Origin: Betaproteobacteria bacterium | Lineage (GTDB): Bacteria; Pseudomonadota; Gammaproteobacteria; Burkholderiales; Eutrophovitaceae | Length of the DNA: 64,000 bases | NCBI GenBank assembly: GCA_020346185.1 | Contig: CP070775.1 | Location: forward strand, 725,398 to 789,397 | Direction of reading: 5' to 3' | Part shown: positions 6,201 through 33,293 of the stretch, in pieces | How the letters are laid out: each line of letters opens with the position of its first letter | Numbering within the stretch: the stretch's first letter is position 1 | Translations under genes and position numbers: made by a program | Notes under the pieces: generated by a model | What the model saw: the letters and a program-made list of their open reading frames with translations, nothing else | Told to the model about the DNA's origin: nothing | Database searches by the model: none

Positions 6201-6219
6201 AAAGCGATCAACTCCAGAT

Positions 6220-10745: not shown

Positions 10746-10916
10746 AAGACGTCAGCACCGCTTGTTTTCTTGGCCGCGAGATTCTGCGACCTATCCCGAA
10801 TGCGCTTGAGGGACACCGAACTGTTCCGGGGCGGCAGCAAACCTGTCCCCATCCGGCAGCTTAGCCAAACATTGTCTGGCTAGTGGCTAGCCCACCTGAA
10901 CTTCGTCCAAGAAGAA

Positions 10917-11708: not shown

Positions 11709-11775
11709 TGAACTCTTTCGCTCCAGACTTTCAAAACATCGCTGCTATGAAAACTTGCTGCTATCAAAATTGTGG

Positions 11776-13242: not shown

Positions 13243-13297
13243 GTGAGAATCCCGTCAACGGCACCACCCGTGACTGTTGTCGTCTCACCCCAAACCT

Positions 13298-13338
13298 ACC
13301 ACCGCGGAGGCCGCGAAGGACGCAGAGAGAAACTGAGG
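13298..13338. repeat. Single family-1 REP-like unit
   Basis: accaccgcggaggccgcgaaggacgcagagagaaactgagg matches the units at 607, 5844 and 5896. Confidence 0.65.
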
Positions 13339-13377
13339 TTCAGGACCGTTCGTGCCTTAGTCTAATAGCGTCGCCTC

Positions 13378-13500
13378 CTGCGTCACCCAGCTCGCCGCTA
13401 ACATCAAGAACGACCTTCCCAAAAATGGCCTTCAGCGCGCAATACGGTTAGCAAGGAATGAAAGAAAAACGTAGCGAGCGGCGTTGAGCTGGGTGCGCAC
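13378..13500. repeat. Long imperfect inverted repeat, possibly a diverged family-2 element
   Basis: The reverse complement of ctgcgtcacccagctcgccgcta (13378-13400) matches tagcgagcggcgttgagctgggtgcgcac (13472-13500) apart from two short insertions. The left arm resembles the ctgcgtgacccgattgcg core of family 2. Confidence 0.45.
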
Positions 13501-13697
13501 TCGCTTTGATAGAACCAGCGCATGGCAACCGGAGTGTACCCAGCAAGTACATGAGGGTGAGAGCGAAATGGCGCGGCATGCCGTGCTATTTCGCAGCGCC
13601 CGGCCACTATGTTGCCGGGCCGAACCGCCGAAGGCGGGTGAGCATCGTATCGATTAGAACCGGCCGCAAGCCCTGATCAACGCCGTGCATTAGTTTT

Positions 13698-15110: not shown

Positions 15111-15565
15111 CTCGAGCTCGGCTGCAGGCCGATCCCGCGCGCCGATAAAGATGCAGCCAACGGAATGGCGAGGAACAATATTGCTTCCGCGGTGAGGTAA
15201 CGCTTCACAAAAAACACCGTCCCCCGCTCAGGCAATTTCCCCATACTCTCCTCGCGATGCCACTGCAGGATGATACGAGCCGGCGAGATCGCGATCAGAA
15301 TCATCGCAGCAAATAACGCCAACTTGATGTAGAAGACCGGGTTACGAAGGTAAAACACCACGCTGCGTTCTGGCCAAACGAGCAGTGCCACGCCGCTTAC
15401 CAGCATGACACCCGCGGCGGCAGCAACACCAAATGAAAAACGCACAAAGCGCTCGACTTGTTGCCGGTCAACTAATCCGTCAATGCTTAGCAGTTGGACA
15501 AACAGTAGCGCCGCCATTGCCATCATCGACAGGCTGTGTAGATAGGCCAGCAACACCGACATCAT
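15107..15565 (-). CDS. Small four-TM membrane protein, DUF2214-like
   Basis: Four hydrophobic helices. The N-terminus (LLAYLHSLSMMAMAALLFVQLL) resembles DUF2214 as I recall it. There are 4-nt overlaps with both flanking peptidase genes. Confidence 0.6.
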   Translation of the reverse strand: MMSVLLAYLHSLSMMAMAALLFVQLLSIDGLVDRQQVERFVRFSFGVAAAAGVMLVSGVALLVWPERSVVFYLRNPVFYIKLALFAAMILIAISPARIILQWHREESMGKLPERGTVFFVKRYLTAEAILFLAIPLAASLSARGIGLQPSSS

Positions 15566-17052: not shown

Positions 17053-17189
17053 AGAGTCAACCGCAATCGAGAGAATACATGTTACCGTGATGGCCTCTAC
17101 ACGGCGTACCGCCAGGCGAGCCGTTCGATGGCGACAGACGGCTCCTGCTGGGCGAACGCGAGGAGCGCTGCCGTTCGTTGCAAAAACAC

Positions 17190-20100
17190 TCAGGCAGTCA
17201 CGGCCGCATTTGGTTCATACGCGAGATTGGGTGCCAGCCAGCGCTCGGCCTCCTCGACCGCCACACCGCGGCGCCTTGCGTAATCCTCGACCTGGTCGCG
17301 GTCAATGCGAGCAACGGCAAAATAACGGGCTTCCGGGTGCGAGAAGTAAAAGCCACTCACTGCGGCTGCCGGCATCATGGCGTAAGACTCCGTCAGGCTG
17401 ATACCCGCATTTCTTGTCGCGTCGAGAAGTTCGAACAGCGGGCCTTTTTCGGTGTGATCCGGACAGGCCGGGTATCCGGGTGCGGGACGGATACCACGAT
17501 AGTTCTCCGCGATGATTTCACCGCCGGTGAGTTTCTCTTCGCTCGCATAGCCCCACCATTCGGTACGCACGCGCCGATGCATCAGTTCCGCAAGTGCTTC
17601 GGCGAGCCGGTCCGCCAGAGCCTTGAGCATAATGGCGTTGTAGTCATCATGGCGCGCCTCGTAGCCGGCAACACGCTCTTCAATGCCGATACCGGCAGTG
17701 ACCGCGAACGCCCCGAGATAATCGGCCACGCCGGTATCCTTCGGAGCAACATAGTCAGCGAGGCAATGATTGAAGCGGTCGGCCGGTTTGACCATCTGCT
17801 GGCGCAGGAAATGGAACCGCTTCAGCACCTTCGTGCGCGACTCATCGTCGTAAACTTCTATGTCGTCACCGACGCTGTTTGCCGGGAACAGTCCAACCAC
17901 GGCATTGGCGCGCAGCCAGCGCTCGTCGATGATACTAGCCAGCATTTTTTGCGCATCTTCGAACAGGTCGCGCGCTGCCTTGCCAACCACCTCGTCTTGC
18001 AGGATCTTCGGATAACGGCCGGCCAGCTCCCATGTCTGAAAAAACGGTGTCCAGTCAATGTACTTCGCAACGTCGGCAAGCGGATAATCATGCAGCACTC
18101 GCAAGCCAAGCCTGGCGGGCACCGGCGGGATCACCTTGCCCCAGTCGGTCGTGACGCCGTGCTCGCGCGCCGCGGCGATGGAATGGTGCGGCCCCTGTCC
18201 TTTCTTGCCCTGATGCAGCGCCCGCGTCCTGGCGGCCTCGTCCCGAACCTTTTTCAAGTACTCATCTCGCAATTCGTTGGATATCAGACTGGTACAAACA
18301 CCGACCGAACGCGATGCATCCGGCACCCAAACGGTTGGCCCCGCAGAATAATTGGGCTCGATCTTGACCGCCGTGTGCACGCGTGAAGTCGTCGCGCCGC
18401 CGATCAACAGCGGCGCCGAAAACCCAAGACGCTGCATTTCTTTGGCGACGTGCGCCATTTCCTCCAATGACGGCGTAATCAAGCCGGACAAACCGATGAT
18501 GTCCGCGTCGACCTCGCGCGCGGTTTGCAAGATGCGCTCGGCCGGCACCATCACACCCAGATTGACCACCTCGAAGTTGTTGCATTGGAGAACCACCGCA
18601 ACGATGTTCTTGCCAATGTCATGCACGTCCCCCTTGACGGTGGCGAGAAGAATCCGGCCCTTTGGCTTGCCGGCGTCACCGGACTTCGCTTTTTCTTCCT
18701 CGATGAAAGGCACGAGGTGCGCCACCGCCTCTTTCATGACGCGCGCCGATTTCACCACCTGTGGCAGAAACATCTTGCCGGCACCGAACAGATCACCTAC
18801 CACGTTCATACCGTCCATCAATGGACCTTCGATGACCTCTATGGGATGCTTTACCGCCAATCGAGCTTCTTCCGTGTCTTCGACGATGTAGCTGTTGATG
18901 CCCTTCACCAGTGCGTGGGTCAGCCGCTCGCTGACACTGCCTTCACGCCACGACAAATCCTCCCGCGCAACTTTTTTCTCGGCGGAGTAGCCTTCGGCGA
19001 ACTCCACCAATCGCTCGGTGGCATCATTGCGCCGATTGAACAACACATCCTCGATGCGTTCCAGCAGTTCCCCGTTAATGTCTTCGTAGACGCCAAGCTG
19101 GCCGGCGTTGACAATGCCCATGGTCATGCCGGCCTGGACCGCGTGATAAAGAAACACCGTATGGATTGCCTCGCGGATACCATCGTTGCCACGGAACGAG
19201 AATGAAATATTCGAAACACCGCCTGACACGCTCGCGTAGGGCAGATGTTCCTTGATATGGCGGGTCGCCTCGATGAAGTCGATTCCGTAGCTCGCATGCT
19301 CCTCGATGCCGGTCGCCACCGCAAAGACATTCGGGTCGAAAATGATGTCTTCCGGCGGAAAACCGACCTCGTCAACCAGCAGGTTATACGCACGCCTACA
19401 GATCTCGATGCGCCGCTGCATCGTGTCAGCCTGACCTTTCTCGTCAAAGGCCATGACGATGGCCGCGGCACCATAGCGGCGCGCCAATTTCGCCTGACGG
19501 ATGAATTCATCCTCCCCCTCCTTGAGGCTGATCGAGTTCACCACCGGCTTGCCCTGCACGCACTTCAGTCCGGCTTCGATGACAACCCACTTGGACGAGT
19601 CGAGCATCGCCGGCACTCGCGAGATATCCGGCTCGGACGCAATCAGGTTCATGAAGCGAGTCATGGTCGCCTCAGAATCGAGCATCGCCTCGTCCATGTT
19701 CACATCAATGATCTGGGCGCCGTTGTCAACCTGCTGACGCGCCACCGACAGCGCCTGCGGATAATCTTCCGCGACAATAAGGCGCGCGAAAGCGCGCGAT
19801 CCGGTAACGTTGGTGCGTTCACCGACATTCACGAAAAGCGAATCCTTGCCGATATTCAGAGGCTCGAGCCCAGCAAGACGTAGTTTTTTCTCGATCTGTG
19901 GTGGCACACGCGGCGCGAGTTTGTCGAGCCGGCTGGCGATCTCCCGAATGTGTGCCGGCGTCGTGCCGCAGCAACCGCCAGCGATGTTGAGGAATCCGGC
20001 ATTGGCAAACTCTTCGAGAAACGAGGCCGTGTATTCCGGCGTTTCGTCGTATTCGCCAAACGCATTTGGCAGCCCGGCGTTCGGATGCAGGCTGGTATGC

Positions 20101-20906
20101 ACACCAGCGACTCGCGAAAGCTCCTCGATATGCGGTCGCAAGTCTTTCGCACCCAGCGCGCAGTTCAGGCCGACGCTGAATGGCCGGGCGTGCGACACCG
20201 AATTCCAGAACGCTTCGGGGGTCTGGCCACTGAGTGTGCGGCCACTGGCATCGGTAATCGTCGCCGACAGCATCACCGGCCGCTCGACGGCGTGTTTCTC
20301 AAAGAAGTCGTCGATGGCAAACAGTGCCGCCTTGCAGTTGAGCGTATCGAACACGGTCTCAACCAGCAGCAGATCGGCGCCACCCTCAATCAGGCCGCCG
20401 ACACATTCGCTGTAGCAGGCAACCAGTTCGTCGAAACTGACATTGCGATAGCCCGGATCGTTAACGTCAGGCGATATCGACGCCGTGGCGTTGGTTGGCC
20501 CCATCACGCCGGCGACAAAGCGCGGTTTGCCGGGCGCCTTCCTGCTCCAGGCATCGGCCCGCTCGCGAGCCAACTGTGCCGCGGCACGGTTCAACTCCGC
20601 AACCCGGTCAGTCAGCCCATAGTCGGCCATCGACACCGAGTTGGAATTGAATGTATTGGTTTCGATGATATCGGAGCCGGCCTCCAGGTAGGCGTCATGG
20701 ATACCGCCAATGATTCCCGGCTGGGTTAACGTCAGCAGGTCATTGTTGCCGGTCTGATCGCACTGATGCTCGCGGAAGCGGTCCCCGTGATAGTGCTCAC
20801 GCGACAGTTTGTGTCCCTGGATCATGGTGCCCATGGCACCGTCCAGGATGAGGATGCGCTCGGAGAGTCGCTCGAAGAAAACCTTGCTGTTGTCCGTATT
20901 ACCCAA
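17190..20906 (-). CDS. metH: Cobalamin-dependent methionine synthase
   Basis: All modules are present: Hcy-binding ([13 protein letters not shown]), pterin-binding, B12-binding (DVHDIGKN) and the AdoMet activation domain. The start is uncertain. I prefer the TTG at 20906 (AGGGG upstream), because the track start at 20945 lies inside a terminator-like hairpin. Confidence 0.93.
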
Positions 20907-20920
20907 AAAAACCGACCCCT

Positions 20921-20958
20921 GAAAAACAAAAAACCCGACCGCCAAAGCAGTCGGGTTT
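20921..20958 (-). terminator. Intrinsic-terminator-like hairpin in the metH 5' leader
   Basis: The minus strand reads AAACCCGAC-tgctttggcg-GTCGGGTTT followed by TTTGTTTTT. There is no upstream minus-strand gene for about 790 bp, so it sits in a leader and not at a gene end. Confidence 0.55.
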
Positions 20959-25943: not shown

Positions 25944-26981
25944 TTACACAGGGTCGACCTGAAACAGTTTGCGGTGATGATATGTCGCCAGACAGACGGT
26001 GCAAAGACCATCCGACCGTGAGGTTGGGGCATGGTAATCAACACCGCAAGCAGAGCAGCGCTGCGAATTCAAAGCGATCGATTGCTGAGGTGAGGTGGTC
26101 CACGGCCACAGCGAGATCGCCTTTGGCTCGCACACATCGACACACAGATGGCAGCCTGTGCAGCGCGAAGCATCTGCACGATAGTGAAGCACTTGCTCCT
26201 CGACCAATGCGAGCGCGCCTGTCGGGCAGACACGCGTACACGCATCGCAACCATCACAACGTTCGGCATCGATGAGCGGGGCCGCGGGAAACACCGCGCC
26301 CTTTGAATCAGATTCGCCGAGCAGCGCTGCCACCGTTGCCGGTGTATCGGCTTCGCCTCGATCGTGGCCGGGATCGACCATGCGCCGCAGGAACGCACGA
26401 CGGCGGGGAGAGACGGGCGTTGCGGCTGACGCGTCACGAATTACGGTGTTGAATTGCCCGCTTTCCAGATAGCGGACTTCAATTTCACGCATGCGACGAC
26501 TGCTCAACATCTCATTGACGTGTAAGACCGTTTGGTCAAGTCGCAGCGTTTGCGGGTCGCATCGCCCGCAATCCCCCGCTGTCACGACCAAACCTCGAAC
26601 ACCCGCCCCGTACAGGCGCAACAGGTCGCGCCAGCTCAGGGCATGCACGCAGGGAAGCGAACAGTGAACCTTGCCGACTCCGGAGTGCGCACACGCAAAA
26701 TACGCAGTGTTGCCCTCGCGCAAGGCCACTGATTCAACTGGTTGTTGCTGTGAATCTATGGCTTCTTGCGGGCATGCCGCCGCGCATAACATACAGCCAT
26801 TACAGGCGCTCACATCGAGTTCGAGGGCATCCTCCCCGAGCGAGAGCGCTCCGGTCGGACAGACAACGGCACACGCCTGGCAGCTCGCTCCGGCAAGACG
26901 GTCATGAACACAACGCGTCTCATTGAAAATCGGTTGCGTATTTTCGATGCGTGTTGAAGACAATGACAATCTCATCGCCAA
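25944..26981 (-). CDS. Cytoplasmic polyferredoxin (four 4Fe-4S motifs plus a C-terminal CxxC...CxxC pair), NapF-like maturation or electron-transfer protein
   Basis: Motifs CQACAVVCP, CNGCMLCAAACP, CDGCDACTRVCP, CTGCHLCVDVCEP, and CSACG...CTVC. No signal or Tat motif. Last gene of the operon. Confidence 0.75.
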   Translation of the reverse strand: MAMRLSLSSTRIENTQPIFNETRCVHDRLAGASCQACAVVCPTGALSLGEDALELDVSACNGCMLCAAACPQEAIDSQQQPVESVALREGNTAYFACAHSGVGKVHCSLPCVHALSWRDLLRLYGAGVRGLVVTAGDCGRCDPQTLRLDQTVLHVNEMLSSRRMREIEVRYLESGQFNTVIRDASAATPVSPRRRAFLRRMVDPGHDRGEADTPATVAALLGESDSKGAVFPAAPLIDAERCDGCDACTRVCPTGALALVEEQVLHYRADASRCTGCHLCVDVCEPKAISLWPWTTSPQQSIALNSQRCSACGVDYHAPTSRSDGLCTVCLATYHHRKLFQVDPV

Positions 26982-27009
26982 GCGCCGGTGGCACGCTTCT
27001 TACGTGGTA

Positions 27010-27798
27010 TCACCAAGACGGTTTCAAACCCGGATGGAAAGCAATCGGAACGACGTTGGTTTCCCTGTTGGGTTTCATGCGCTGTTCGATTTCCTCGGCC
27101 GAAGGTCTCGGCTCACCGTTGATCTCGACGATCAGGTCACGCAGGGCCACGCAACAGGAGGCAGTCAACAGCGCCGCCCCGGCATAGAAACCGGTTGTAC
27201 AGCGCTCGGCCACTCGCGCCGCGAAATTGGGCAGCCAGCGCAACAGATGTTCATCCATGAACCGCCCGATCTCACCCAGATCGACTTCGTCAAAGCGGCG
27301 AAGCAGTGTTTCCAGAAAGTGCAGCTGTGCCACCAGATGGTCGTCGGAGCGCGTGCGCCAGTTCTCAACCGCAAGACCGAAGCGGCGATACCAGGATCGA
27401 ATCTGGAAAGTGGCGGCCTGCAGCGCCAGCCCCTCGGCGTCCAGCCATACTGATTCGCACGGCGAAGCACGGTATTTGTGGTTCAGGTAAATCGCCGCGT
27501 AGTCGGCGGCGAGCTCATCGAGCACCCAAGCCTCAGGTGTGGCGCCAATACTGGCAAGCGATTCAGCCAGTATTGCGGCACTATCGCGCACCTGCCGGGA
27601 AAAGTCAGCCAGCATCACTGCAGCGGGAAAATCACTCTCGTGCAGATAGGCGAGCAGTTCCGGACCAAGCTCGCGATCGTGAAGTGCCGCCAAAACGCGA
27701 AGATCATCGGCCACGGCATTGCGTACCCGCTGCACCTGTGCCGCGTCGAGATCGCTGTCCATTGCGCAAGGCATGTTCTTTTCAGCCGATTCATCCAT
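27010..27798 (-). CDS. TorD/DmsD-family redox-enzyme maturation chaperone
   Basis: The LAADYAAIYL...SDDHLVAQLHFLETLL pattern is typical of TorD-like chaperones. I chose the start ATG at 27798, which overlaps the beta-subunit stop (ATGGATGA). The track start is 27840. Confidence 0.75.
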   Translation of the reverse strand: MDESAEKNMPCAMDSDLDAAQVQRVRNAVADDLRVLAALHDRELGPELLAYLHESDFPAAVMLADFSRQVRDSAAILAESLASIGATPEAWVLDELAADYAAIYLNHKYRASPCESVWLDAEGLALQAATFQIRSWYRRFGLAVENWRTRSDDHLVAQLHFLETLLRRFDEVDLGEIGRFMDEHLLRWLPNFAARVAERCTTGFYAGAALLTASCCVALRDLIVEINGEPRPSAEEIEQRMKPNRETNVVPIAFHPGLKPSW

Positions 27799-28468
27799 TG
27801 TCTTCATCCACCTTGCCCTTGCTATGCGGCACGAACGCAATCGATGGCTTGGTTAGCTGCGGATCGGCGAAATTCTTCACTGCCTTGACCGGTTTCTCGC
27901 CTGGCGCCATTGCCTTGGTCGCATGTTCGCCACGCCACAACTGTTCGATCGGCCCGATATCCAGCACCCGCATCATGCATGCCGAAACACAATACGGCTT
28001 GCGACCAGCATCGATCTCGTCGACACACATGTTGCATTTCTTGACGATGCGATCTTCGGGATCGAATTGCGGCGCACCGTACGGGCACACCGCCTCGCAG
28101 CGGCGGCAACCAATGCACAGCGTCGAGTCGATGTCGACGATGCCGTCCTGCTTGCGTTTCCATATCGCGCCGGTCGGGCAAGCCGGCAGACAAGCAGGTT
28201 CGGCGCAATGATTACAGGACATGTTGACCTTGTAGGCGTAGACTTCCGGGTAGGTACCGCCCTCGATGTACTGCACGCGACGAAAACGCGGCCCCGGCGG
28301 CAAGCCGTTCTTGTCCTTGCACGCGATCTCACAGGCACGACAACCGATACAGTCGACGTTGTGATGGATAAAGCCGAGCTGCATGTCGGGCTTGACCGGT
28401 ACGTAGGTCTCGCGCCTGCGCCTGCGTACCGCTGCCTTGACCTTTTCCTTGTCTACCTGATTCGCCAT
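27791..28468 (-). CDS. DmsB-like iron-sulfur (beta) subunit, four [4Fe-4S] motifs
   Basis: Motifs CIGCRACEIAC, CNHCAEPACLPAC, CIGCRRCEAVC and CNMCVDEIDAGRKPYCVSAC. GGAG lies upstream of ATG 28468. It has no Tat signal of its own, so it would hitch-hike with alpha. Confidence 0.9.
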   Translation of the reverse strand: MANQVDKEKVKAAVRRRRRETYVPVKPDMQLGFIHHNVDCIGCRACEIACKDKNGLPPGPRFRRVQYIEGGTYPEVYAYKVNMSCNHCAEPACLPACPTGAIWKRKQDGIVDIDSTLCIGCRRCEAVCPYGAPQFDPEDRIVKKCNMCVDEIDAGRKPYCVSACMMRVLDIGPIEQLWRGEHATKAMAPGEKPVKAVKNFADPQLTKPSIAFVPHSKGKVDEDNG

Positions 28469-28498
28469 GACTTCGCTCCGTGAGTGCCGCTGAGCAGA

Positions 28499-31054
28499 CT
28501 ACATATCGCGCCGGAAGACATGTGACCTCGAGGTCGCCAACCTGTCCCAACCGGGCTTGTGCTGCAGCTTTGTTTTCTTGATGTTGACTAGTATCGTGTT
28601 GTAGGCAAAGGCGCCGGCCGGGCTCGGTTCATCGAGTGTGAGGAAATCAGGGTTACCGGCGCGGTCGACGCCATTCTCGTCCAGATCCATCCAGGCCCCT
28701 TCATGCAGCACCGCGACGTTCGGCATGCATCGCTCGGTCACGTAGACCGGCACGACAACGCGTCCCCGGTCATTCCAAATTTCGACCACATCGCCGGTCT
28801 TCAAACCAAGTTCCCGCGCATTGGCCGCATTAATCGTCACCTCCTGCTCGTAGGTCTCACGCAACCACGAGCAGTTATTGAAGATCGAATGCGTGCGCCA
28901 GCGCGGGTGAGGCGTGACCAGGTGAAACGGAAACTGTTGCGCCTTTTCACTGTTCAGTGATTCAAACGGCTCGATCCATTTCGGAATTGCAGGTATCTCG
29001 TAACCAAACTGGGTTCTGGTCCAGTCTTTGACATTGGCAATCCGGCTCGAAAAGATCTCGATCTTGCCCGACTTGGTGCGAAACTTCTTGCCTTTTTCTA
29101 TCTGATCCTGAAAGGCGACAAACGGCCGTGACAGTTTGAACTTGTAAATGCCGTGCTGCTTGAATTCTTCCCAGGTCATGGTCACGCGCTGCTTGCCCAT
29201 CACCCGCTTCTCCCACCACTCGCTCAGGTAGGCTTCGTCGGTTTCATCGTTGTTCTCGAAATAATCACTCGTTGCCTTCGGGTTGTACCGGGCCCCAAAG
29301 CCGAGCTGGTTGGCAAGCTCGGTATAGATCTGAAAATCGGTCTTGCTCTCGCCCAGCGGCTCGATCACCTTGGGGCGGTGGATGTAGTAATGGCCCTTGT
29401 ACCAGGGCAGCGCCACATCATGACGCTCGAAATGGGTGGCCACCGGCAGCAGCACGTCAGCCCAAAGTCCCGATGGCGTGATGGTCGAATCCATACACAC
29501 CACCAGATCGAGTTTCTGGATGGCCTCGATCTCCTTGTTGATGTTGGTCAGCTGATTGAACCAGTCCGATCCCTGCCAGAAAATACCGCGGATATTGGGG
29601 ATGGTGCCGTCGAACTTGTCCGGCCGCGGCCACAGCCCGATCTCTTCACGACGCACATTCGGATAGTTAAGAACGCAATGCGCCCAACGATCCGATTTGA
29701 TCGCGGCAAACCAGATGTTGGCATTCTTGTCGTAGGGGTAGGCAATCGACTGGGCATGCCATGCCTTGCCGACGCCTTCCGCACTGCCGCCGAGAACGCC
29801 GACATTACCGGTCATTGACTGCAACGCAGCCGCCATGCGGCTGTACTGCTCGCCATAGGCGGCACGGCCAGGCGCCCATGATGCCTTGAGTGCTGCTGGC
29901 TTGGTCGTCGCGTACGTGCGAGCCAGTTTCTTGATGTCGTCCGCCTTGACGCCGCAAATCGGCTCGGCCCATTCCGGCGTTTTTGGCACACCGTCAGTTA
30001 CACCAAGAACGTAATCCTTGAAGTTCTCCTGGTCCTTTGCCCAGTCCGGCATGGTGCCAGCGTCCATGCCCTGGCAGAAGCGATCGATGAAGGGCTGGTC
30101 CTGAAGGTTGTTAACGAAAATGTAATGCGCCATTGCCGCCATCATCGCCGCGTCAGTATTGGGCTTAATGGGGATCCACCATGCGTCATAGGCAGCGGCA
30201 GAATCCGTGTACTGCGGATCGACCAGCACAAACTTGCAGCCGCGCTGCTTGGCAAGCCGCATGTAATAGAAGGTGTTGCCGCCATGAAAAGTGTAGGCCG
30301 GATTCCAGCCCCACATAATGATCAGTTTGCTGTGCGCAAAGGTATCGTCCTCATTGCCGTCCTGGATGGTGCCAAAGGTCATGCGCGAACTGAATGTTGT
30401 GCCCTGGTAAGACGGCACCGACCAGGAGTTGGTACGGCAGCCGAACATACCGAGGAAACGCGCTTGTAAGCCTTCGATCTGGTCCGATTTGTGTAGCACG
30501 CCCCAGGTGGCACCAGCATAGCTTTGATCGAGTATCGAGGTCGGACCATACTTGGTCTTTAACTCGATCATTTTTTCGGTGATAAAACCCAACGCCTCGT
30601 CCCACGACGCGCGCTTGAACTTGCCTTCGCCGCGTTTGCCGACGCGCATCATCGGATAGAGCAGGCGTTCGGCTGAGTAAATTCGCTGCCGGTACGAACG
30701 CCCGCGGAGGCAGGCGCGAACCTGCGGTTCTTCTTCGGTATCTTTGCCGTAGAAACCGTCCTTCTGATAACGCCCGTCGTCCGAGGACAGGCGGACGATG
30801 ACGTCGCCTTTCTTGTGCGCCACCAAAGCGTGGCGCGAACCGCAGTTGTGCGCGCAACTGGTGACCACCGTTTCCAGATCATCGTCTCGTGGGTAGGGTT
30901 CGTAGGGGAATGCCTGCGCCTTTCCGGTGGTACCGATATCCAGCAAACCGTTGATGGCAAGCGCGCCGGCACCGGCCGCGCTAGTTTTGACGAAAGTTCT
31001 TCGTGACTGGTCGATACGCTCGGCGAGAAACTTGAAGTCTCGAGGCTTGTTCAT
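28499..31054 (-). CDS. Tat-exported molybdopterin oxidoreductase catalytic (alpha) subunit, DmsA/YnfE-like; substrate unknown
   Basis: Tat motif SRRTFVKTSAAGAGALA. FS0 region TSCAHNCGSRHALVAH...RACLRGRS. Colinear with E. coli DmsA as I recall it (YPMMRVGKRGEGKFKRASWDEA, DPQYTDSAA, IPIKPNTDAA). 851 aa. Confidence 0.9.
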   Translation of the reverse strand: MNKPRDFKFLAERIDQSRRTFVKTSAAGAGALAINGLLDIGTTGKAQAFPYEPYPRDDDLETVVTSCAHNCGSRHALVAHKKGDVIVRLSSDDGRYQKDGFYGKDTEEEPQVRACLRGRSYRQRIYSAERLLYPMMRVGKRGEGKFKRASWDEALGFITEKMIELKTKYGPTSILDQSYAGATWGVLHKSDQIEGLQARFLGMFGCRTNSWSVPSYQGTTFSSRMTFGTIQDGNEDDTFAHSKLIIMWGWNPAYTFHGGNTFYYMRLAKQRGCKFVLVDPQYTDSAAAYDAWWIPIKPNTDAAMMAAMAHYIFVNNLQDQPFIDRFCQGMDAGTMPDWAKDQENFKDYVLGVTDGVPKTPEWAEPICGVKADDIKKLARTYATTKPAALKASWAPGRAAYGEQYSRMAAALQSMTGNVGVLGGSAEGVGKAWHAQSIAYPYDKNANIWFAAIKSDRWAHCVLNYPNVRREEIGLWPRPDKFDGTIPNIRGIFWQGSDWFNQLTNINKEIEAIQKLDLVVCMDSTITPSGLWADVLLPVATHFERHDVALPWYKGHYYIHRPKVIEPLGESKTDFQIYTELANQLGFGARYNPKATSDYFENNDETDEAYLSEWWEKRVMGKQRVTMTWEEFKQHGIYKFKLSRPFVAFQDQIEKGKKFRTKSGKIEIFSSRIANVKDWTRTQFGYEIPAIPKWIEPFESLNSEKAQQFPFHLVTPHPRWRTHSIFNNCSWLRETYEQEVTINAANARELGLKTGDVVEIWNDRGRVVVPVYVTERCMPNVAVLHEGAWMDLDENGVDRAGNPDFLTLDEPSPAGAFAYNTILVNIKKTKLQHKPGWDRLATSRSHVFRRDM

Positions 31055-31109
31055 ATTGTTTACCCTTGTAACTCTGACGAAAAGTCACGATTGGCTGACG
31101 CCGCGCCGA

Positions 31110-31877
31110 TTACTCGATCAGGAAACGCGGCTGCGATTCGGTGGACCGCTGCTCTGCCCAATTCGGTGTCTGCTCCGGCATCCCCGGCCATGCATGACGC
31201 GGATAGGGAAAGGCGATGCGATACCACGAGCGCCCTCCATGGCAGCCGTAGCAGAAGTCGCTGTTCTCCATTCCCGCTTTTTCAATCTCTGCCGCGTTCA
31301 GGAAATTCACCTGATGCCGCTCAGTGCGGATCGCCGCATGGCATAGCATGCAGTTGTTACCGAACATGTCTCTCGAGCTGTGCCAATCAGACGGCAAGCC
31401 CATGAGCTCATACGCAAACTGGCCATGACACATCAGGCAGGTGTCGGGATTGACCTGCTTGCGAAGTGTGAATGATTCGTTGGTGGATTCCGGCGGAATC
31501 GGTGCCTCCTCTCGCGGGTCGTGCCCCTGATGGCAGGTGTTGCACCGCATGTGCATCAAGCGTTGCGCCAACGGTGTGACCATGTGCCGGCGATGGAAGC
31601 TCTCCTGTTCGCCCTGGTAAGTAGTTAACGTTTGATACCAGGCCAACGACTCATCCGCCCGGATCCCGGCAGGCGATTGCGCGAGCGGCCTGTCATCCAG
31701 CACCTCCTGGTGACAGGCAAGACACTGCTCGTTCGTGGCGCTCTGTATGTGAGGTTGAAAGTGGATCGGATGCCAAACAGCCCCCAGGTAGTCGGCGGAC
31801 TCTTCCGCAAATGCCAAGTCCAGACCGGCACCGAGGATAAGCATTATTACCTGCACCAGGAGTTTCGACTTCAGCAT
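31110..31877 (-). CDS. Pentaheme c-type cytochrome with N-terminal signal/anchor
   Basis: Five CXXCH motifs (CLACH, CNTCH, CLMCH, CMLCH, CYGCH). N-terminal hydrophobic segment ending AFA-EE. It lacks the NapC/CymA CISCH-type N-terminus. Confidence 0.85.
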   Translation of the reverse strand: MLKSKLLVQVIMLILGAGLDLAFAEESADYLGAVWHPIHFQPHIQSATNEQCLACHQEVLDDRPLAQSPAGIRADESLAWYQTLTTYQGEQESFHRRHMVTPLAQRLMHMRCNTCHQGHDPREEAPIPPESTNESFTLRKQVNPDTCLMCHGQFAYELMGLPSDWHSSRDMFGNNCMLCHAAIRTERHQVNFLNAAEIEKAGMENSDFCYGCHGGRSWYRIAFPYPRHAWPGMPEQTPNWAEQRSTESQPRFLIE

Positions 31878-31889
31878 CGATTGACTCTC

Positions 31890-31922
31890 GAAGAAAAGCC
31901 CGGGGGGCCTTATGCCCCCCGG
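31890..31922 (-). terminator. Strong GC hairpin plus U-tract between the Met-rich gene and the cytochrome gene (intra-operon attenuator/terminator)
   Basis: Perfect 9-bp stem CCGGGGGGC / GCCCCCCGG (31900-31908 / 31914-31922) with a 5-nt loop. On the minus strand it is followed by GCTTTTCTTCG. Confidence 0.6.
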
Positions 31923-31963
31923 TGCCCACGAGTAAAAAAGTCTTGGGGCTCCGCTAGTAGCGG

Positions 31964-32557
31964 CTACTCACATGCTCCGCCCATGCCTGACATTCCGGAC
32001 ATACCAGGACCGCAATCCATACCACCGGACATACCCTCCATCGGCTCGTCCACACGAGCAGCAGGAGCGGTAGACGAGGGGTTCCCTTTGCAGGTACCGC
32101 CCATGCCAGCCATGCCCGACATGCCAGGCCCGCAATCCATTCCGGACATTTCCCCTTCGGGTTCGTACTGTCCGGACATACTGCCCATGCCGCCCATGCC
32201 ACCCATGCCTTGCTGGCTACCCATGCCGGATACCCCTTCCATCCCTGACATTCCGGACATGTCATCCATTGCCCGAGCATTCGGGTCATAGTCGCCGGAC
32301 ATGCCGCCCATACCACCCATGCCACCCATGCCTTGCTGGCTACCCATACCGGAGACGCCCTCCATTCCAGACATGCCCGTCATGTCGGGCAGATTCTCGG
32401 GCGCATTGGGATCGTAGCGCCCGGACATGCCACCCATGCCGCTCATCGCATCCATGCCGGCTTCCATGCCCTCAGGTTGAGCGCTCGCCACCCCGCTCAG
32501 CATCGTAAGCATTGCACCGAGACCAAGCGCCAGCGTGATCTTTGATGTCTGTTTCAT
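31964..32557 (-). CDS. Secreted Met/Gly/Ser-rich repetitive protein (36 Met in 197 aa) with two DCGPGMSGMxGMGGxC motifs
   Basis: GAGGAG RBS 8 nt upstream. Sec signal peptide ...LSGVASA-QP. The mature part is almost entirely GM/SGM repeats. First gene downstream of the FNR-type boxes and on the same strand as the operon. Confidence 0.8.
   Translation of the reverse strand: MKQTSKITLALGLGAMLTMLSGVASAQPEGMEAGMDAMSGMGGMSGRYDPNAPENLPDMTGMSGMEGVSGMGSQQGMGGMGGMGGMSGDYDPNARAMDDMSGMSGMEGVSGMGSQQGMGGMGGMGSMSGQYEPEGEMSGMDCGPGMSGMAGMGGTCKGNPSSTAPAARVDEPMEGMSGGMDCGPGMSGMSGMGGACE
32141..32386 (-). repeat. Intragenic tandem duplication (2 x ~123 bp) within the Met-rich gene
   Basis: Residues 58-98 and 99-139 are near-identical (D-M-[TS]-GMSGMEGVSGMGSQQGMGGMGGMG[GS]MSG-x-Y-[DE]-P). 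The DNA blocks around 32197-32270 and 32317-32390 align closely. Confidence 0.85.
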
Positions 32558-32743
32558 TCTTTTATCTCCTCTGCTTGTACAGTCTTATTAAGGTAACCGC
32601 CGTGTCTGCACGACCTCACTAAATCAGGCATGCTGACGGTGATGTACCACGCGCTTCAGGATTAACGCCTTCCCCCTCTGCTCGCACCAGCATTAACCAC
32701 ATAACTACACAAAGTCAAGATACTCGCTCGCGACAAATCGCAT

Positions 32744-32757
32744 TTGACGTGTATCAA
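32744..32757 (-). promoter_or_regulatory. FNR/CRP-family binding box, promoter-proximal
   Basis: TTGACGTGTATCAA against the FNR consensus TTGAT-N4-ATCAA (one mismatch). A TATCTT -10-like hexamer (32717-32722, minus strand) lies 21 nt downstream. That puts the box centre near -41.5, a class II architecture. Confidence 0.6.
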
Positions 32758-32775
32758 CCCGCGGCCAGTGGAGAT

Positions 32776-32789
32776 TTGACGTGTATCAA
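32776..32789 (-). promoter_or_regulatory. FNR/CRP-family binding box, distal (identical copy)
   Basis: An identical 16-mer ATTTGACGTGTATCAA is repeated 32 bp (about three helical turns) upstream of the proximal box. Confidence 0.55.
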
Positions 32790-32978: not shown

Positions 32979-33293
32979 CTACTCCGGGCTCTTGCCGGCG
33001 TGCCGTTGATGCCAACCACGGATATCGTAGCGGCCGGTCATCCCCGGACGGTTGAATGGCGTATGCCAATTACCCTGGTCATCAAGGAAACGCAGGCTTG
33101 CAGGATAAGGCCGGGAGATGCCCGTCAAAGAGTAACGAAACCAATCGGAACCATGATCAACGCTGGTGATCACCGGGGCGCCTTCGGGGCGTTGCCAAGG
33201 CGTCAATCCGGCGCCAGCCTCGCCCGCCGCCGTCGCAGTGACCGAGTTAAACGTCAGCAGTCCTACCGAGAACCACAAGCTTCTATGCAACAT
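32979..33293 (-). CDS. Hypothetical small secreted protein (about 104 aa)
   Basis: Taking the internal ATG 33293 gives MLHRSLWFSVGLLTFNSVTATAAGE..., a signal-peptide-like N-terminus. The C-terminal block is WHTPFNRPGMTGRYDIRGWH. The RBS is weak and I recognise no family. Confidence 0.45.
   Translation of the reverse strand: MLHRSLWFSVGLLTFNSVTATAAGEAGAGLTPWQRPEGAPVITSVDHGSDWFRYSLTGISRPYPASLRFLDDQGNWHTPFNRPGMTGRYDIRGWHQRHAGKSPE

What the first reader, a model, noticed from the sequence alone, without database searches (positions are those of the whole stretch)
25944..32789. Unassigned FNR-box-fronted respiratory-type operon: Met-rich secreted protein, pentaheme cytochrome c, atypical DmsAB-type molybdoenzyme, TorD chaperone and polyferredoxin, with no quinol-dehydrogenase subunit
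What the sequence shows:
- Six co-directional minus-strand genes with short gaps or overlaps sit behind two FNR-type boxes.
- The catalytic subunit is Tat-exported and colinear with DmsA/YnfE.
- The operon lacks the DmsC/NrfD-type membrane anchor and any NapC/CymA/TorC-like quinol oxidase.
- In their place it has a 255-aa five-heme cytochrome that I do not recognise and, as the promoter-proximal gene, a protein with 36 Met in 197 residues.

Background knowledge: several DMSO-reductase-family enzymes (E. coli DmsABC and BisC, TorZ/MtsZ, Rhodobacter DorA) reduce methionine sulfoxide. A periplasmic Met-rich peptide (MrpX) regenerated by a YedY-type reductase has been described as a hypochlorite sink in the perchlorate reducer Azospira suillum.

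Inference: this operon may be a new, respiratory-chain-fed version of that idea. The Met-rich protein would be the oxidant sink or the actual electron acceptor, and the DmsAB-like enzyme its reductase. Alternatively the operon is a reductase for an unknown oxyanion whose toxic by-product is buffered by the Met-rich protein. I cannot assign a substrate from sequence.
Basis: partly seen in the sequence, partly recalled or inferred. Interest (0 to 1): 0.85.

Follow-up and report, generated by a model that had tools for sequence, protein, structure and literature searches.

The report
Molybdoenzyme operon with poly-methionine protein
A widespread, uncharacterised bacterial operon pairs a DMSO-reductase-like molybdenum enzyme and an unfamiliar five-haem cytochrome with a secreted protein made almost entirely of Gly-Met-Ser repeats, which points to (but does not prove) a respiratory-chain-powered methionine-sulfoxide cycle in the periplasm.

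Summary
Six minus-strand genes lie at 25944-32557: a Met-rich secreted protein, a 5-haem cytochrome, a Tat-exported DmsA-like subunit, a DmsB-like subunit, a TorD chaperone and a polyferredoxin. They sit behind two identical FNR-type boxes and include no membrane quinol-oxidising subunit.

New here:
- **Alpha subunit.** It belongs to a tight clade, 75-94% identical across Alpha-, Beta- and Gammaproteobacteria and present in at least 582 species genomes. It is only 33-36% identical to E. coli DmsA/YnfE/YnfF and scores below every curated family cut-off.
- **Met-rich gene.** It is conserved directly upstream of the cytochrome in 63 of 67 informative loci. Typically it is a signal peptide followed by (Gly-Met-Xaa)n.
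- **Seventh gene.** A small secreted protein (window 32979-33293) is equally conserved.
- **Regulation.** Most lineages carry a haem-motif sensor kinase plus a sigma-54 regulator. This lineage uses FNR-type boxes instead.
- **Hairpin.** A terminator-like hairpin follows the Met-rich gene.

Published work calls lucinid-symbiont dmsAB genes a highly expressed DMSO reductase of unverified substrate. Whether those are this clade was not checked gene by gene.

The best reading is a cytochrome-fed sulfoxide reductase that keeps the poly-Met protein reduced. This is inferred, not shown. The main rivals are a small-molecule reductase and a Cu(I)-binding role for the Met-rich protein.

The parts
32979..33293 (-). 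Small secreted protein of unknown function ('fam8', about 104 aa from the ATG at 33293). It is the seventh conserved gene of the module.
   Evidence: It is 53% identical to the family representative. A homologue lies directly upstream of the Met-rich gene in 43 of 44 loci. It has no Pfam or NCBIfam match, and the AF2 model is unusable.
32776..32789 (.). Distal FNR/CRP-family box, TTGATACACGTCAA.
   Evidence: One of only two matches in the 64 kb window. It is not conserved in L001.
32744..32757 (.). Proximal FNR/CRP-family box, TTGATACACGTCAA, about 193 nt upstream of the Met-rich gene's ATG.
   Evidence: It is a 17-nt island of perfect identity with L001 inside a divergent spacer.
32717..32722 (-). 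Candidate -10 hexamer, TATCTT. Its spacing puts the proximal box near -41.5, as in a class II FNR promoter.
   Evidence: Read from the sequence. The spacing argument is inference.
31964..32557 (-). Secreted Met/Gly-rich protein. It is a variant of the (Gly-Met-Xaa)n family: 33 Met in the 171-aa mature part, 26 of them preceded by Gly.
   Evidence: Conserved in 63 of 67 loci. Codon evidence supports this reading frame. A GGAG ribosome-binding site precedes the ATG.
31900..31922 (-). Terminator-like hairpin with nine G-C pairs (CCGGGGGGC-ATAAG-GCCCCCCGG) followed by a T-rich tail, between the Met-rich and cytochrome genes.
   Evidence: Analogous hairpins with different stem sequences occur at the same place in 24 of 63 loci.
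31110..31877 (-). Soluble periplasmic pentahaem c-type cytochrome of a distinct family ('Cyt5').
   Evidence: All five CxxCH motifs are invariant in 20 aligned homologues, and there is a cleavable signal peptide. It has 1894 homologues. It lies directly upstream of the alpha gene in 77 of 80 loci. Similarity to NrfB, TorC and solved structures is weak and local.
28499..31054 (-). Tat-exported Mo-bisPGD catalytic subunit of a DmsA-like but separate clade.
   Evidence: Ser215 aligns with the Mo-ligand Ser and Tyr179 with DorA Tyr114. The FS0 motif C-x3-C-x3-H is found in 80 of 80 loci.
27791..28468 (-). DmsB-like subunit with four Cys groups for [4Fe-4S] clusters.
   Evidence: Fer4_11, and TIGR02951 at 191 bits against a 214 cut-off. 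Present in 76 of 80 loci.
27010..27840 (-). TorD/DmsD-family maturation chaperone. The start codon is uncertain, because the ORF overlaps the beta gene.
   Evidence: PF02613, and NF003442 (TorD) at 79 bits against a 132 cut-off. Present in 70 of 80 loci.
25944..26981 (-). Polyferredoxin with no signal peptide, presumably cytoplasmic and involved in maturation or electron transfer (NapF-like).
   Evidence: Several Fer4 domains, and TIGR00402 (napF) at 38.6 bits, below its cut-off. Present in 53 of 80 loci and absent from the Rhodocyclales members.

Best explanation
This is one member of a conserved periplasmic module: small secreted protein, poly(Gly-Met-Xaa) protein, soluble pentahaem cytochrome, DmsA-like Mo enzyme, DmsB-like Fe-S subunit, TorD chaperone and polyferredoxin.

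The enzyme is a Ser-ligated, DmsAB-type oxygen-atom-transfer reductase. It has lost the membrane quinol-oxidising subunit. Instead it is fed through its own five-haem cytochrome, probably from the periplasmic cytochrome c pool.

I think its most likely physiological substrate is the methionine sulfoxide that forms on the co-encoded secreted poly-Met protein. The pair would then work as a catalytic oxidant sink driven by the respiratory chain: thioethers are oxidised chemically and re-reduced enzymatically. Equivalently, the enzyme would keep a thioether-rich periplasmic matrix in the reduced state.

In this genome the operon is transcribed from an FNR-type (anaerobic or micro-oxic) class II promoter. 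A hairpin after the first gene lets the Met-rich protein be made in excess over the enzyme.

**Shown:** gene content, conservation, motifs and clade position.
**Inferred:** the electron path, the direction of catalysis, the identity of the substrate, and the functions of the boxes and the hairpin.
For: - **Co-occurrence.** The Met-rich gene is co-directional and adjacent in 63 of 67 informative loci from three proteobacterial classes. It is also present on a conjugative plasmid of cultured Rhodobacter xanthinilyticus.
- **Protein-level selection.** Of 3358 Met residues, 98% are preceded by Gly and 93% of Met-Met spacings equal 3. All four Gly codons and both Ser codon classes are used.
- **Active-site signature.** Ser215 aligns with the Mo-ligand Ser and Tyr179 with DorA Tyr114. 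The S-Y-G-W motif containing that Tyr is reported as necessary for sulfoxide reduction (PMC7402097).
- **Precedents.** DorA reduces protein-bound MetSO and prefers a Gly-Met(O)-Gln context, QWGAGM(O)Q (PMC7402097). This matches the G-M-S/G/Q repeat. MrpX and YedY form a periplasmic Met-rich sink with its reductase (PMC4436054). E. coli DmsABC reduces MetSO and is induced by hypochlorite (PMC12096835).
- **Hairpin.** A hairpin with a T-run follows the Met-rich gene in the window and in 24 of 63 loci, with different stem sequences. This fits a product needed in excess of the enzyme.
- **Electron input.** No membrane subunit is among the conserved neighbours. Class I cytochrome c genes sit inside the operon in 16 loci. 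In R. xanthinilyticus one is fused to the pentahaem domain.
Against: - There is no biochemical or expression evidence for this clade.
- Control by FNR-type boxes here, and by a sensor kinase with a sigma-54 regulator elsewhere, does not resemble the known oxidative- or chlorine-stress regulators (SigF/NrsF, HprSR). Anaerobic induction is odd for an antioxidant system.
- The same window already encodes a MsrP/MsrQ-like pair at 7448-9190.
- (GMx)n stretches also occur as linkers or tails in c-type cytochromes outside this operon. The repeat may therefore have a role unrelated to being a substrate.
- The Trp of the DorA S-Y-G-W motif is Gly in this clade.
- A class I cytochrome c donor would be of rather high potential for a sulfoxide couple of about +160 mV (own knowledge).
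- MxxM spacing is also the classic Cu(I)/Ag(I)-binding pattern.
Confidence: 0.4

Rival explanations
1. This is an ordinary respiratory or detoxifying reductase for a small molecule. Candidates are DMSO, free MetSO or N-oxides, or a high-potential oxyanion such as selenate, chlorate or iodate. The Met-rich protein would be an accessory that buffers a reactive by-product or protects the haems and Fe-S clusters. It would not be the substrate.
For: - The nearest curated family is DmsA/YnfE.
- The A-B-chaperone-ferredoxin order matches the Shewanella dmsABGH clusters, which respire DMSO without DmsC (PMC5013071).
- FNR-type control.
- Lucinid-symbiont genes annotated as DMSO reductase are described as a highly expressed terminal oxidase and a possible alternative electron sink (PMC8090883; bioRxiv 10.64898/2025.12.05.692423).
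- Cytochrome c donors suit a high-potential acceptor.
Against: - It gives no reason for a (Gly-Met-Xaa)n protein of 120-470 aa to be near-universal in the operon, promoter-proximal and very regular.
- No chlorite dismutase or peroxidase is among the conserved neighbours.
- The enzyme scores far below the YnfE and DmsA equivalog cut-offs.
Confidence: 0.3
2. The poly-Met protein is mainly a high-capacity periplasmic Cu(I)/Ag(I) buffer, an extended MxxM 'Mets' motif. It would protect c-type cytochromes and Fe-S enzymes under anoxia. The Mo enzyme would either keep its thioethers reduced or merely be co-regulated with it.
For: - Met occurs at every third residue in 93% of spacings. This is the MxxM spacing of the methionine-only Cu(I)/Ag(I)-selective motifs of Ctr1 (PMC9117721, abstract).
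- (GMx)n is fused to several periplasmic cytochromes c.
- The PMC9302797 title and partial abstract concern periplasmic MsrPQ protein repair and the Met-containing copper chaperone CusF under copper stress.
Against: - No cop, cus or multicopper-oxidase gene is among the conserved neighbours.
- The repeat lacks the His and Asp residues common in bacterial Met-rich copper proteins.
- Many carriers live in sulfidic habitats, where free copper is scarce (own knowledge).
- The idea does not explain why the partner is always this particular Mo-enzyme clade.
Confidence: 0.15
3. The enzyme runs in the oxidative direction as a thioether (DMS or methionine) dehydrogenase. Electrons would pass through the pentahaem cytochrome to cytochrome c and on to oxidases, denitrification enzymes or photosynthetic reaction centres.
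For: - The partners are c-type cytochromes, not a quinol oxidase.
- Carriers include purple sulfur bacteria and Hyphomicrobiaceae.
- DMSO reductases are reversible in vitro, and DMS dehydrogenase donates to cytochrome c2 (own knowledge).
Against: - FNR-type control in this window.
- Characterised DMS dehydrogenase is a type II, Asp-ligated enzyme, not DmsA-like (own knowledge).
- A stoichiometric protein cannot be a sustained electron donor, so the Met-rich protein remains unexplained.
Confidence: 0.07
4. The (Gly-Met-Xaa)n protein is a structural, low-complexity periplasmic matrix. It could be a polyglycine-II or collagen-like assembly, or a condensate, that organises cytochromes carrying the same repeat. 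Its assembly would be switched by methionine oxidation state, which the Mo enzyme sets.
For: - Strict Gly-X-Y periodicity, detected by collagen-like adhesin HMMs at E about 1e-13.
- The same repeat occurs in mono-, di- and tetrahaem cytochromes.
- A redox-switched, Met-rich low-complexity domain is known in yeast Ataxin-2 (Kato et al. 2019, seen only as a title in the PMC7402097 reference list).
Against: - This is entirely speculative.
- The repeat contains no Pro or charged residues to stabilise a triple helix.
Confidence: 0.05

Closest known systems
E. coli DmsABC / YnfEFGH (membrane-bound S-/N-oxide and selenate reductases)
   Same: - The alpha subunit is colinear, Tat-exported and aligns a Ser at the Mo-ligand position (33-36% identity).
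- A DmsB-like subunit with four cluster motifs is present.
- A TorD/DmsD-type chaperone is present.
- E. coli DmsABC is now known to reduce MetSO and to respond to HOCl (PMC12096835).
   Different: - There is no DmsC/YnfH membrane anchor.
- A soluble pentahaem cytochrome is present instead.
- The FS0 motif is C-x3-C-x3-His, not Cys.
- The alpha subunit has a 23-aa C-terminal tail and two insertions.
- It scores below the TIGR02166 cut-off and far below the DmsA and YnfE equivalog cut-offs.
- It forms a separate lineage in the tree.
- It comes with the poly-Met and fam8 genes.
Shewanella dmsEFABGH / dmsA2B2G2H2 DMSO reductases
   Same: The order is catalytic subunit, Fe-S subunit, chaperone, then a further accessory gene, with no DmsC. 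The type II cluster works without the DmsE/DmsF outer-membrane conduit (PMC5013071). That DmsH is a ferredoxin-type protein is from memory.
   Different: - There is no decahaem DmsE or porin DmsF. The cytochrome scores 22.6 bits on the DmsE family model against a 192 cut-off.
- The Met-rich and fam8 genes are not described for Shewanella.
- I could not obtain a Shewanella DmsA sequence, so no direct comparison was made.
MrpX-YedY1(MsrP)-YedZ1 hypochlorite-scavenging system of Azospira suillum
   Same: The concept is the same: a signal-peptide-bearing, Met-rich (20% Met), probably unfolded periplasmic protein is encoded in one transcription unit with a periplasmic molybdenum sulfoxide reductase (PMC4436054).
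   Different: - The reductase belongs to a different superfamily (DMSO-reductase family with Fe-S and haem partners, not the sulfite-oxidase-fold MsrP with MsrQ).
- The Met-rich protein is not homologous and differs in composition: (G-M-S/G)n with 38% Gly and few charges, against 44% charged residues in MrpX.
- It is also much larger, with up to 118 Met.
- The regulators differ: FNR-type boxes or a sensor kinase with a sigma-54 regulator, not SigF/NrsF.
Rhodobacter DorCDA / E. coli TorCAD (type III periplasmic S-/N-oxide reductases with a pentahaem cytochrome)
   Same: - It is a periplasmic Ser-Mo enzyme. DorA (1eu1) is the best solved-structure match, at E = 7.6e-76.
- It is served by a five-haem c-type cytochrome and a TorD chaperone.
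- DorA reduces protein-bound MetSO (PMC7402097).
   Different: - DorA and TorA lack the FS0 domain and have no Fe-S subunit.
- TorC and DorC are membrane-anchored NapC-type quinol dehydrogenases. This cytochrome has a cleavable signal peptide and only local similarity to TorC.
NrfB (soluble pentahaem electron shuttle of the Nrf nitrite reductase)
   Same: It is a small, soluble periplasmic cytochrome with five CxxCH motifs that would act as an electron wire to a terminal reductase.
   Different: Only a 38-column local profile match (hhalign probability 81%) and E = 0.9 against the NrfB structures. No NrfCD quinol dehydrogenase is present.

Membership tests
DmsABC-type DMSO reductase (E. coli) | Catalytic subunit passes the DmsA/YnfE family model. 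| tested here: not met
   TIGR02166 scores 628.7 bits against a 777.7 cut-off. The DmsA equivalog NF011566 scores 450 against 1600. Identity to E. coli DmsA is 36%.
DmsABC-type DMSO reductase (E. coli) | Ser ligand to Mo and an N-terminal FS0 cluster motif with four Cys. | tested here: inconclusive
   Ser215 aligns with the ligand Ser. The third FS0 ligand is an invariant His rather than Cys (CAHNCGSRH in 80 of 80 loci).
DmsABC-type DMSO reductase (E. coli) | DmsC/NrfD-type integral membrane quinol-oxidising subunit encoded in the operon. | tested here: not met
   No such gene is in the window operon. None is among the gene families conserved across 80 loci.
YnfEFGH selenate/tellurate reductase | Alpha subunit passes the YnfE or YnfF model. 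| tested here: not met
   NF041885 scores 471 bits against 1675. NF041884 scores 421 against 1650.
Shewanella DmsEFABGH extracellular DMSO reductase | Decahaem DmsE and outer-membrane DmsF encoded upstream of dmsAB. | tested here: not met
   The upstream cytochrome has five haem motifs and scores 22.6 bits on TIGR03508 against a 192 cut-off. No porin-like ORF is present.
Shewanella DmsEFABGH extracellular DMSO reductase | Alpha subunit groups with Shewanella DmsA in a phylogeny. | not tested
   No Shewanella DmsA sequence could be obtained with these tools. The tree contains only E. coli references and unnamed representatives.
TorCAD / DorCDA type III reductases | Catalytic subunit without an FS0 domain and without an Fe-S partner, plus a membrane-anchored NapC-type pentahaem cytochrome. 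| tested here: not met
   An FS0 domain and a DmsB-like gene are present. TorA models score 284-297 bits against cut-offs of 909-1465. The cytochrome has a cleavable signal peptide and matches TorC only locally.
MrpX-MsrP(YedY)Q periplasmic methionine redox sink | Secreted Met-rich protein co-transcribed with a periplasmic Mo sulfoxide reductase. | tested here: met
   The protein has a signal peptide and 18% Met (20-31% in typical relatives). It is adjacent to and co-directional with the reductase genes. Co-transcription itself is inferred.
MrpX-MsrP(YedY)Q periplasmic methionine redox sink | The reductase is a sulfite-oxidase-fold MsrP with a haem b MsrQ partner. | tested here: not met
   The operon's reductase belongs to the DMSO-reductase family. 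A separate MsrP/MsrQ-like pair lies elsewhere in the window at 7448-9190.
MrpX-MsrP(YedY)Q periplasmic methionine redox sink | The Met residues are oxidised in vivo and re-reduced by the partner enzyme. | not testable with these tools
   This needs a gel-shift or mass-spectrometry assay and enzyme kinetics.
Methionine-only Cu(I)/Ag(I) 'Mets' motif proteins | Repeated MxxM / MxMxxM spacing of Met residues. | tested here: met
   93% of Met-Met spacings equal 3 across 63 proteins, and 20 of 32 do in the window protein.
Methionine-only Cu(I)/Ag(I) 'Mets' motif proteins | Binds Cu(I)/Ag(I), or sits in a copper-homeostasis gene context. | tested here: inconclusive
   No copper-homeostasis genes are among the conserved neighbours. 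Metal binding itself cannot be tested here.

The most novel reading that the evidence does not exclude
The secreted (Gly-Met-Xaa)n protein is the dedicated macromolecular redox partner of this Mo-enzyme clade. It would be a protein-borne thioether/sulfoxide mediator that links the periplasmic cytochrome chain to reactive oxidants, or to another acceptor, that the enzyme cannot reach directly. This would amount to 'protein-methionine-sulfoxide respiration', using its own pentahaem cytochrome family, its own small secreted protein and its own haem-motif sensor kinase. It would also identify the substrate of the highly expressed 'DMSO reductase' reported in lucinid symbionts, if that enzyme is this clade.
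Probability: 0.3. Interest if true: 0.9.

Novelty: new variant of a known kind. Interest (0 to 1): 0.8.

Why it matters
**Distribution.** The clade occurs in at least 582 species-level genomes. Carriers include sulfur oxidisers, denitrifiers, wastewater Competibacter and Dechloromonas, and the symbionts of lucinid clams and tubeworms.

[quoted passage not shown] It is being counted as a DMS source in organosulfur budgets (bioRxiv 10.64898/2025.12.05.692423). I did not confirm gene by gene that this enzyme is the clade studied here, but Thiodiazotropha genomes carry the clade.

**What the finding offers.** The enzyme almost always comes with a secreted protein of 30-118 regularly spaced methionines. 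This protein is nearly invisible to tryptic proteomics because it has almost no Lys or Arg, and the clustered protein collection did not hold the window's own version. Its presence gives a concrete and cheap hypothesis for the substrate.

**If the hypothesis is right:**
- It would be a second, independent invention of the Met-rich-sink idea, this time wired to the cytochrome chain.
- Annotating these genes as DMSO respiration would be misleading.

**If it is wrong:** the (Gly-Met-Xaa)n repeat, the new pentahaem cytochrome family, the Cys-Cys-His FS0 motif and the haem-motif sensor kinase are still uncharacterised and conserved.

Tried and rejected
- **Family scans.** Pfam and NCBIfam found no family for the window Met-rich protein or for fam8. 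A typical (GMS)n relative hits only collagen-like adhesin models, through its Gly-X-Y periodicity. I do not read this as homology.
- **Structure prediction.** AlphaFold2 gave a mean pLDDT of 46 for the cytochrome with a 20-sequence alignment, and 44 for fam8 from a single sequence. Both were too poor for fold searches, so none were run, and both prediction jobs are now spent.
- **Homology search with the Met-rich protein.** It returned only 5 hits, probably because of HMMER's composition correction. It therefore could not map the family. The composition scan of ORFs upstream of the cytochrome gene did that job instead.
- **tblastn with the window Met-rich protein.** It found only 5 of the 63 relatives and would have wrongly suggested that the gene is not conserved.
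- **Sigma-54 promoter scan.** The first script had an indexing error and returned nothing. The corrected run is.
- **Sigma-54 promoter or sensor/regulator pair in this window.** None was found.
- **FNR boxes upstream of the other loci.** They appear only in the closest relative, L001, so FNR-type control is not a family trait.
- **Sulfur-compound reductase (Psr/Phs/Ttr-like).** Considered because of the sulfur-oxidiser hosts, but rejected. A Ser aligns at the Mo-ligand position, where those enzymes have Cys by my recollection, and the models score low.
- **Met-rich protein as an electron-acceptor store.** Rejected on a back-of-envelope capacity estimate: it would cover only seconds of respiration (own reasoning).
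- **Literature.** Nine searches found no paper describing the Met-rich partner or the biochemistry of this clade.

Full report
**1. The observation**

| Gene | Coordinates | Size | Key evidence |
|---|---|---|---|
| Met-rich protein | 31964-32557 | 197 aa | 36 Met, 52 Gly; N-terminus reads as a Sec signal peptide (…GVASA\|QPEG); GGAG ribosome-binding site |
| Cytochrome | 31110-31877 | 255 aa | five CxxCH motifs |
| Alpha subunit | 28499-31054 | 851 aa | SRRTFVK twin-arginine motif; Fe4S4, Molybdopterin and Molydop_binding domains |
| Beta subunit | 27791-28468 | 225 aa | four-cluster ferredoxin; best match DmsB |
| Chaperone | 27010-27840 | 276 aa | TorD/NarJ family |
| Polyferredoxin | 25944-26981 | 345 aa | no signal peptide |

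- None of the six is a DmsC/NrfD-type or NapC/CymA-type protein.
- The cytochrome's only link to NapC/NirT is a sub-threshold Pfam hit (21 bits against 24.1).
- The two boxes TTGATACACGTCAA (32744-32757 and 32776-32789) are the only matches in the 64 kb window within one mismatch of the FNR consensus.
- Two matches in 64 kb is not itself unusual, since 1.5 are expected. The following points support function:
  - Both boxes fall within the 421-nt spacer in front of the operon.
  - When that spacer is aligned with the closest relative (L001, alpha subunit 89% identical), the proximal box is a 17-nt island of perfect identity in otherwise divergent sequence.
  - A TATCTT hexamer lies where a class II FNR promoter would have its -10 element. 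This last point is inference.
- The right half-site is GTCAA, so the sequence cannot tell FNR/ANR from DNR/NNR-type regulators.

**2. The enzyme belongs to a large, tight, uncharacterised clade**

- The protein search returned 120 best hits that are all 76-100% identical. Twelve members from Alpha-, Beta- and Gammaproteobacteria share 84% mean column identity.
- Two clade-specific peptides found at least 582 loci among GTDB species representatives. Hosts include Thiodiazotropha, Sedimenticola, Chromatiaceae, Beggiatoaceae, Thiobacillus, Competibacter, Dechloromonas and other Rhodocyclales, Hyphomicrobiaceae, and tubeworm and clam symbionts.
- The window itself matches a betaproteobacterial MAG (UCD69208.1).
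- Against curated models, the alpha subunit is closest to the dmsA_ynfE subfamily but below its cut-off (629 against 778 bits). It is far below every equivalog of a characterised enzyme: YnfE, DmsA, YnfF, TorA, PhsA, ArrA, TtrA, NarG and EbdA.
- It is 36, 35 and 33% identical to E. coli DmsA, YnfE and YnfF.
- A search of 50%-identity representatives shows a sparse fringe at 53, 47, 46 and 42% identity before the general DmsA-like background.
- In a neighbour-joining tree the clade is a compact group on a long stem, separate from the E. coli DmsA/YnfEF group.
- Clade signatures:
  - an FS0 motif C-[A/D]-H-N-C-G-S-R-H, in which the third Cys ligand is an invariant His (80 of 80 loci and 120 of 121 proteins)
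  - two insertions
  - a conserved 23-residue C-terminal tail
- Ser215 aligns with the Mo-ligand Ser of DorA and DmsA. Tyr179 aligns with DorA Tyr114. The residue roles are from established knowledge of 1EU1, and PMC7402097 names the S-Y-G-W motif as necessary for sulfoxide reduction. The Trp of that motif is Gly in this clade.

**3. The operon is a conserved module, and the Met-rich gene is part of it**

In 80 fetched loci:

| Gene | Loci |
|---|---|
| Pentahaem cytochrome gene directly upstream of the alpha gene | 77 of 80 |
| Beta gene | 76 of 80 |
| TorD gene | 70 of 80 |
| Polyferredoxin | 53 of 80 |

Most absences are at contig ends. The polyferredoxin is absent from the Rhodocyclales members.

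- tblastn with the window's Met-rich protein found almost nothing. A composition scan found a co-directional Met/Gly-rich ORF just upstream of the cytochrome gene in 63 of 67 loci with enough sequence.
- Clustering all neighbouring ORFs revealed more conserved genes:
  - A secreted protein of about 100 aa and no known family ('fam8'). It lies directly upstream of the Met-rich gene in 43 of 44 loci. The window ORF at 32979-33293 is its homologue (53% identity).
  - A sensor histidine kinase (42 loci) with a CxxCH motif in its periplasmic Cache-like domain in 38 of 40 full-length members.
  - A sigma-54-dependent response regulator (37 loci).
  - Class I monohaem cytochromes c between the chaperone and the polyferredoxin (16 loci).
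  - Lineage-specific extras, including a thioredoxin-NHL protein.
- Sigma-54 promoters (TGGCAC-N5-TTGC, 0-1 mismatch) precede fam8 in about 14 loci.
- The window and L001 lack the kinase/regulator pair and the sigma-54 promoter. They have the FNR-type box between fam8 and the Met-rich gene instead. FNR control is therefore a lineage-specific rewiring.
- A cultured carrier exists. The conjugative plasmid pEJ01 of Rhodobacter xanthinilyticus LPB0142 carries fam8, a 244-aa (GMS)n protein, the cytochrome, the alpha (77% identity) and beta subunits, TorD, the polyferredoxin, the kinase and the regulator.

**4. Anatomy of the Met-rich protein**

- The typical family member is a signal peptide followed by long runs of Gly-Met-Ser or Gly-Met-Gly triplets, 120-470 aa long with up to 118 Met. 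The runs are interrupted by short aromatic linkers such as YFQITPQGQIYFYPA and QWVYVPS.
- Across 63 proteins and 3358 Met residues:
  - 98% of Met are preceded by Gly.
  - 91% are followed by Ser or Gly.
  - 93% of Met-Met spacings equal 3.
  - Composition is 38% Gly, 26% Met and 16% Ser, with almost no Lys or Arg.
- The repeat is maintained at the protein level, not as a DNA repeat. All four Gly codons are used. Both disjoint Ser codon classes (AGY 412, TCN 1450) occur within the repeats of 60 of 63 loci.
- The window protein is a looser variant, shared with L001 and P0264. Its GM-rich blocks are separated by acidic D-Y-D-P-N spacers, and it has two C-terminal Cys-x12-13-Cys units.
- A hairpin with nine G-C pairs and a T-run lies in the 86-nt gap after the gene (31900-31922). 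Hairpins with unrelated stem sequences occupy the same position in 24 of 63 loci. I read this as a partial terminator or a stabiliser that uncouples the Met-rich (and fam8) transcript level from the enzyme genes. That reading is inference.

**5. The cytochrome and the electron supply**

- The cytochrome family has 1894 detectable homologues. All five CxxCH motifs, several candidate distal His residues and a cleavable signal peptide are conserved.
- It has no close solved relative. Similarity to NrfB and TorC is short and local.
- In R. xanthinilyticus the pentahaem domain is fused behind a membrane anchor and a class I cytochrome c domain. In 16 loci a monohaem cytochrome c is encoded in the operon.
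- The proposed route is therefore: cytochrome c pool (or an unlinked quinol dehydrogenase), then five haems, then four Fe-S clusters, then FS0, then Mo. This is inferred from gene content.
- The polyferredoxin has no signal peptide and is presumably a cytoplasmic maturation factor of the NapF kind (sub-threshold napF hit).

**6. What it most likely does**

The active-site signature and the family place the enzyme among oxygen-atom-transfer S-/N-oxide reductases. The one feature that sets the module apart from every characterised relative is the obligatory, promoter-proximal, highly regular poly-thioether protein. The simplest account is that its methionine sulfoxides are the enzyme's physiological substrate.

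Supporting parallels from the literature:
- DorA reduces protein-bound MetSO and prefers a G-M(O)-Q context (PMC7402097).
- E. coli DmsABC reduces MetSO and is induced by HOCl (PMC12096835).
- MrpX and YedY show that a secreted Met-rich sink paired with a Mo reductase works in vivo (PMC4436054).
- Gly on the N-terminal side of every Met would maximise access to a deep active-site funnel (inference).

Points against:
- Regulation is anaerobic or two-component, not of the oxidative-stress type.
- A MsrP/MsrQ-like pair lies in the same window (7448-9190).
- The MxxM spacing is also that of Cu(I)/Ag(I) 'Mets' motifs (PMC9117721).
- (GMx)n stretches serve as linkers or tails in cytochromes outside the operon:
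  - a monohaem cytochrome c (P0265)
  - a Thiothrix dihaem cytochrome (P0266)
  - a NapC/CymA-type tetrahaem protein next to fccAB and soxYZ (P0268)

The rivals are set out separately: a small-molecule reductase with a protective accessory, a Cu(I) buffer, reverse operation as a thioether dehydrogenase, and a structural or condensate matrix.

**7. Relation to what is known**

Mechanistically the module resembles the MrpX-MsrP idea, built from DmsAB-type parts and wired like a Tor/Dor or Nrf system. It is not a member of any of these:
- It fails the DmsABC definition (no DmsC, below the family cut-off, altered FS0).
- It fails the Shewanella DmsEFAB definition (no DmsE or DmsF).
- It fails the type III definition (it has FS0 and a beta subunit).
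- It fails the MsrPQ definition (different superfamily).

Published mentions concern lucinid-symbiont genes annotated as dmsAB:
- PMC11237559 notes dmsAB near soxY-S1c.
- bioRxiv 10.64898/2025.12.05.692423 lists it among the highest-expressed symbiont genes.

Thiodiazotropha genomes carry the clade studied here. I did not confirm gene by gene that these papers refer to it. Nine full-text searches found no description of the Met-rich partner, fam8, the cytochrome family or the enzyme's biochemistry.

**8. Verdict and limits**

- I rate this a new variant of a known kind: a DMSO-reductase-family enzyme combined with the Met-rich sink concept. Several components are uncharacterised.
- Limits:
  - No Shewanella or other named reference sequences were available for the tree.
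  - No usable structure models were obtained.
  - There are no expression data for this clade.
  - The (GMX)n family could not be mapped genome-wide, because profile searches suppress low-complexity matches.

Noticed in passing
window 7448-9190 (minus strand): A MsrP/MsrQ-like pair lies about 17 kb from the operon: an Oxidored_molyb protein of 343 aa at 8159-9190 and a Ferric_reduct membrane protein of 233 aa at 7448-8149. If it is MsrPQ, the genome already has the canonical periplasmic methionine sulfoxide reductase.
   Followed up: partly
window 17190-20945 (minus strand): A B12-dependent methionine synthase (MetH, 1251 aa) lies 5 kb from the operon. This is probably coincidental, but it is the only other methionine-related gene nearby.
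   Followed up: no
P0268 / L086 9001-9873; P0266 / L089 9001-10026; P0265 / L090 654-1250: (Gly-Met-Xaa)n stretches also occur fused to c-type cytochromes outside this operon. P0268 is a NapC/CymA-type tetrahaem protein with a (GMx)n tail, next to fccAB and soxYZ. P0266 is a Thiothrix dihaem cytochrome with a (GMx)n linker. P0265 is a monohaem cytochrome c with a (GMS)n spacer.
   Followed up: partly
L083 (Rhodobacter xanthinilyticus plasmid pEJ01, NZ_CP017782.1) 6143-17125: The complete module, including the sensor kinase and sigma-54 regulator, sits on a conjugative plasmid of a cultured strain. There the cytochrome is a hexahaem fusion: membrane anchor, class I cytochrome c domain, then the pentahaem domain. 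An IS1380-family transposase lies about 2.4 kb upstream.
   Followed up: partly
L002 6160-8052 and 41 other loci (family 'fam4'): The associated sensor histidine kinase has a CxxCH haem-binding motif in its periplasmic Cache-like domain in 38 of 40 full-length members. This suggests a haem c-based sensor of unknown signal.
   Followed up: partly
L009 1709-2677 and L045 1685-2506: Sedimenticolaceae loci carry a second (GMX)n gene about 4 kb upstream of the first. Their polyferredoxin gene also lies upstream of the operon rather than at its end.
   Followed up: no
L015, L039, L051 (Beggiatoaceae/Thiotrichaceae), alpha gene at 8001-10520: In these three loci the alpha gene (78% identical) stands alone, with no adjacent cytochrome, beta, chaperone or Met-rich gene.
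   Followed up: no
L007, L009, L024 and 12 other loci, about 13-15 kb ('fam11'): A 535-aa secreted thioredoxin-like protein with NHL repeats and a CxxC motif follows the operon in Thiodiazotropha, Sedimenticola and related loci.
   Followed up: no
window 13698-15110 and 15562-17052 (minus strand); 10917-11708 (minus strand): Three sizeable ORFs (470, 496 and 263 aa) have no Pfam match at E <= 1e-5.
   Followed up: no
window 27791-27900 (N-terminus of the beta subunit): The DmsB-like subunit has an N-terminal extension of about 28 residues containing RRRRR, ahead of the first cluster motif. By my recollection E. coli DmsB lacks it. Its conservation and role were not checked.
   Followed up: no
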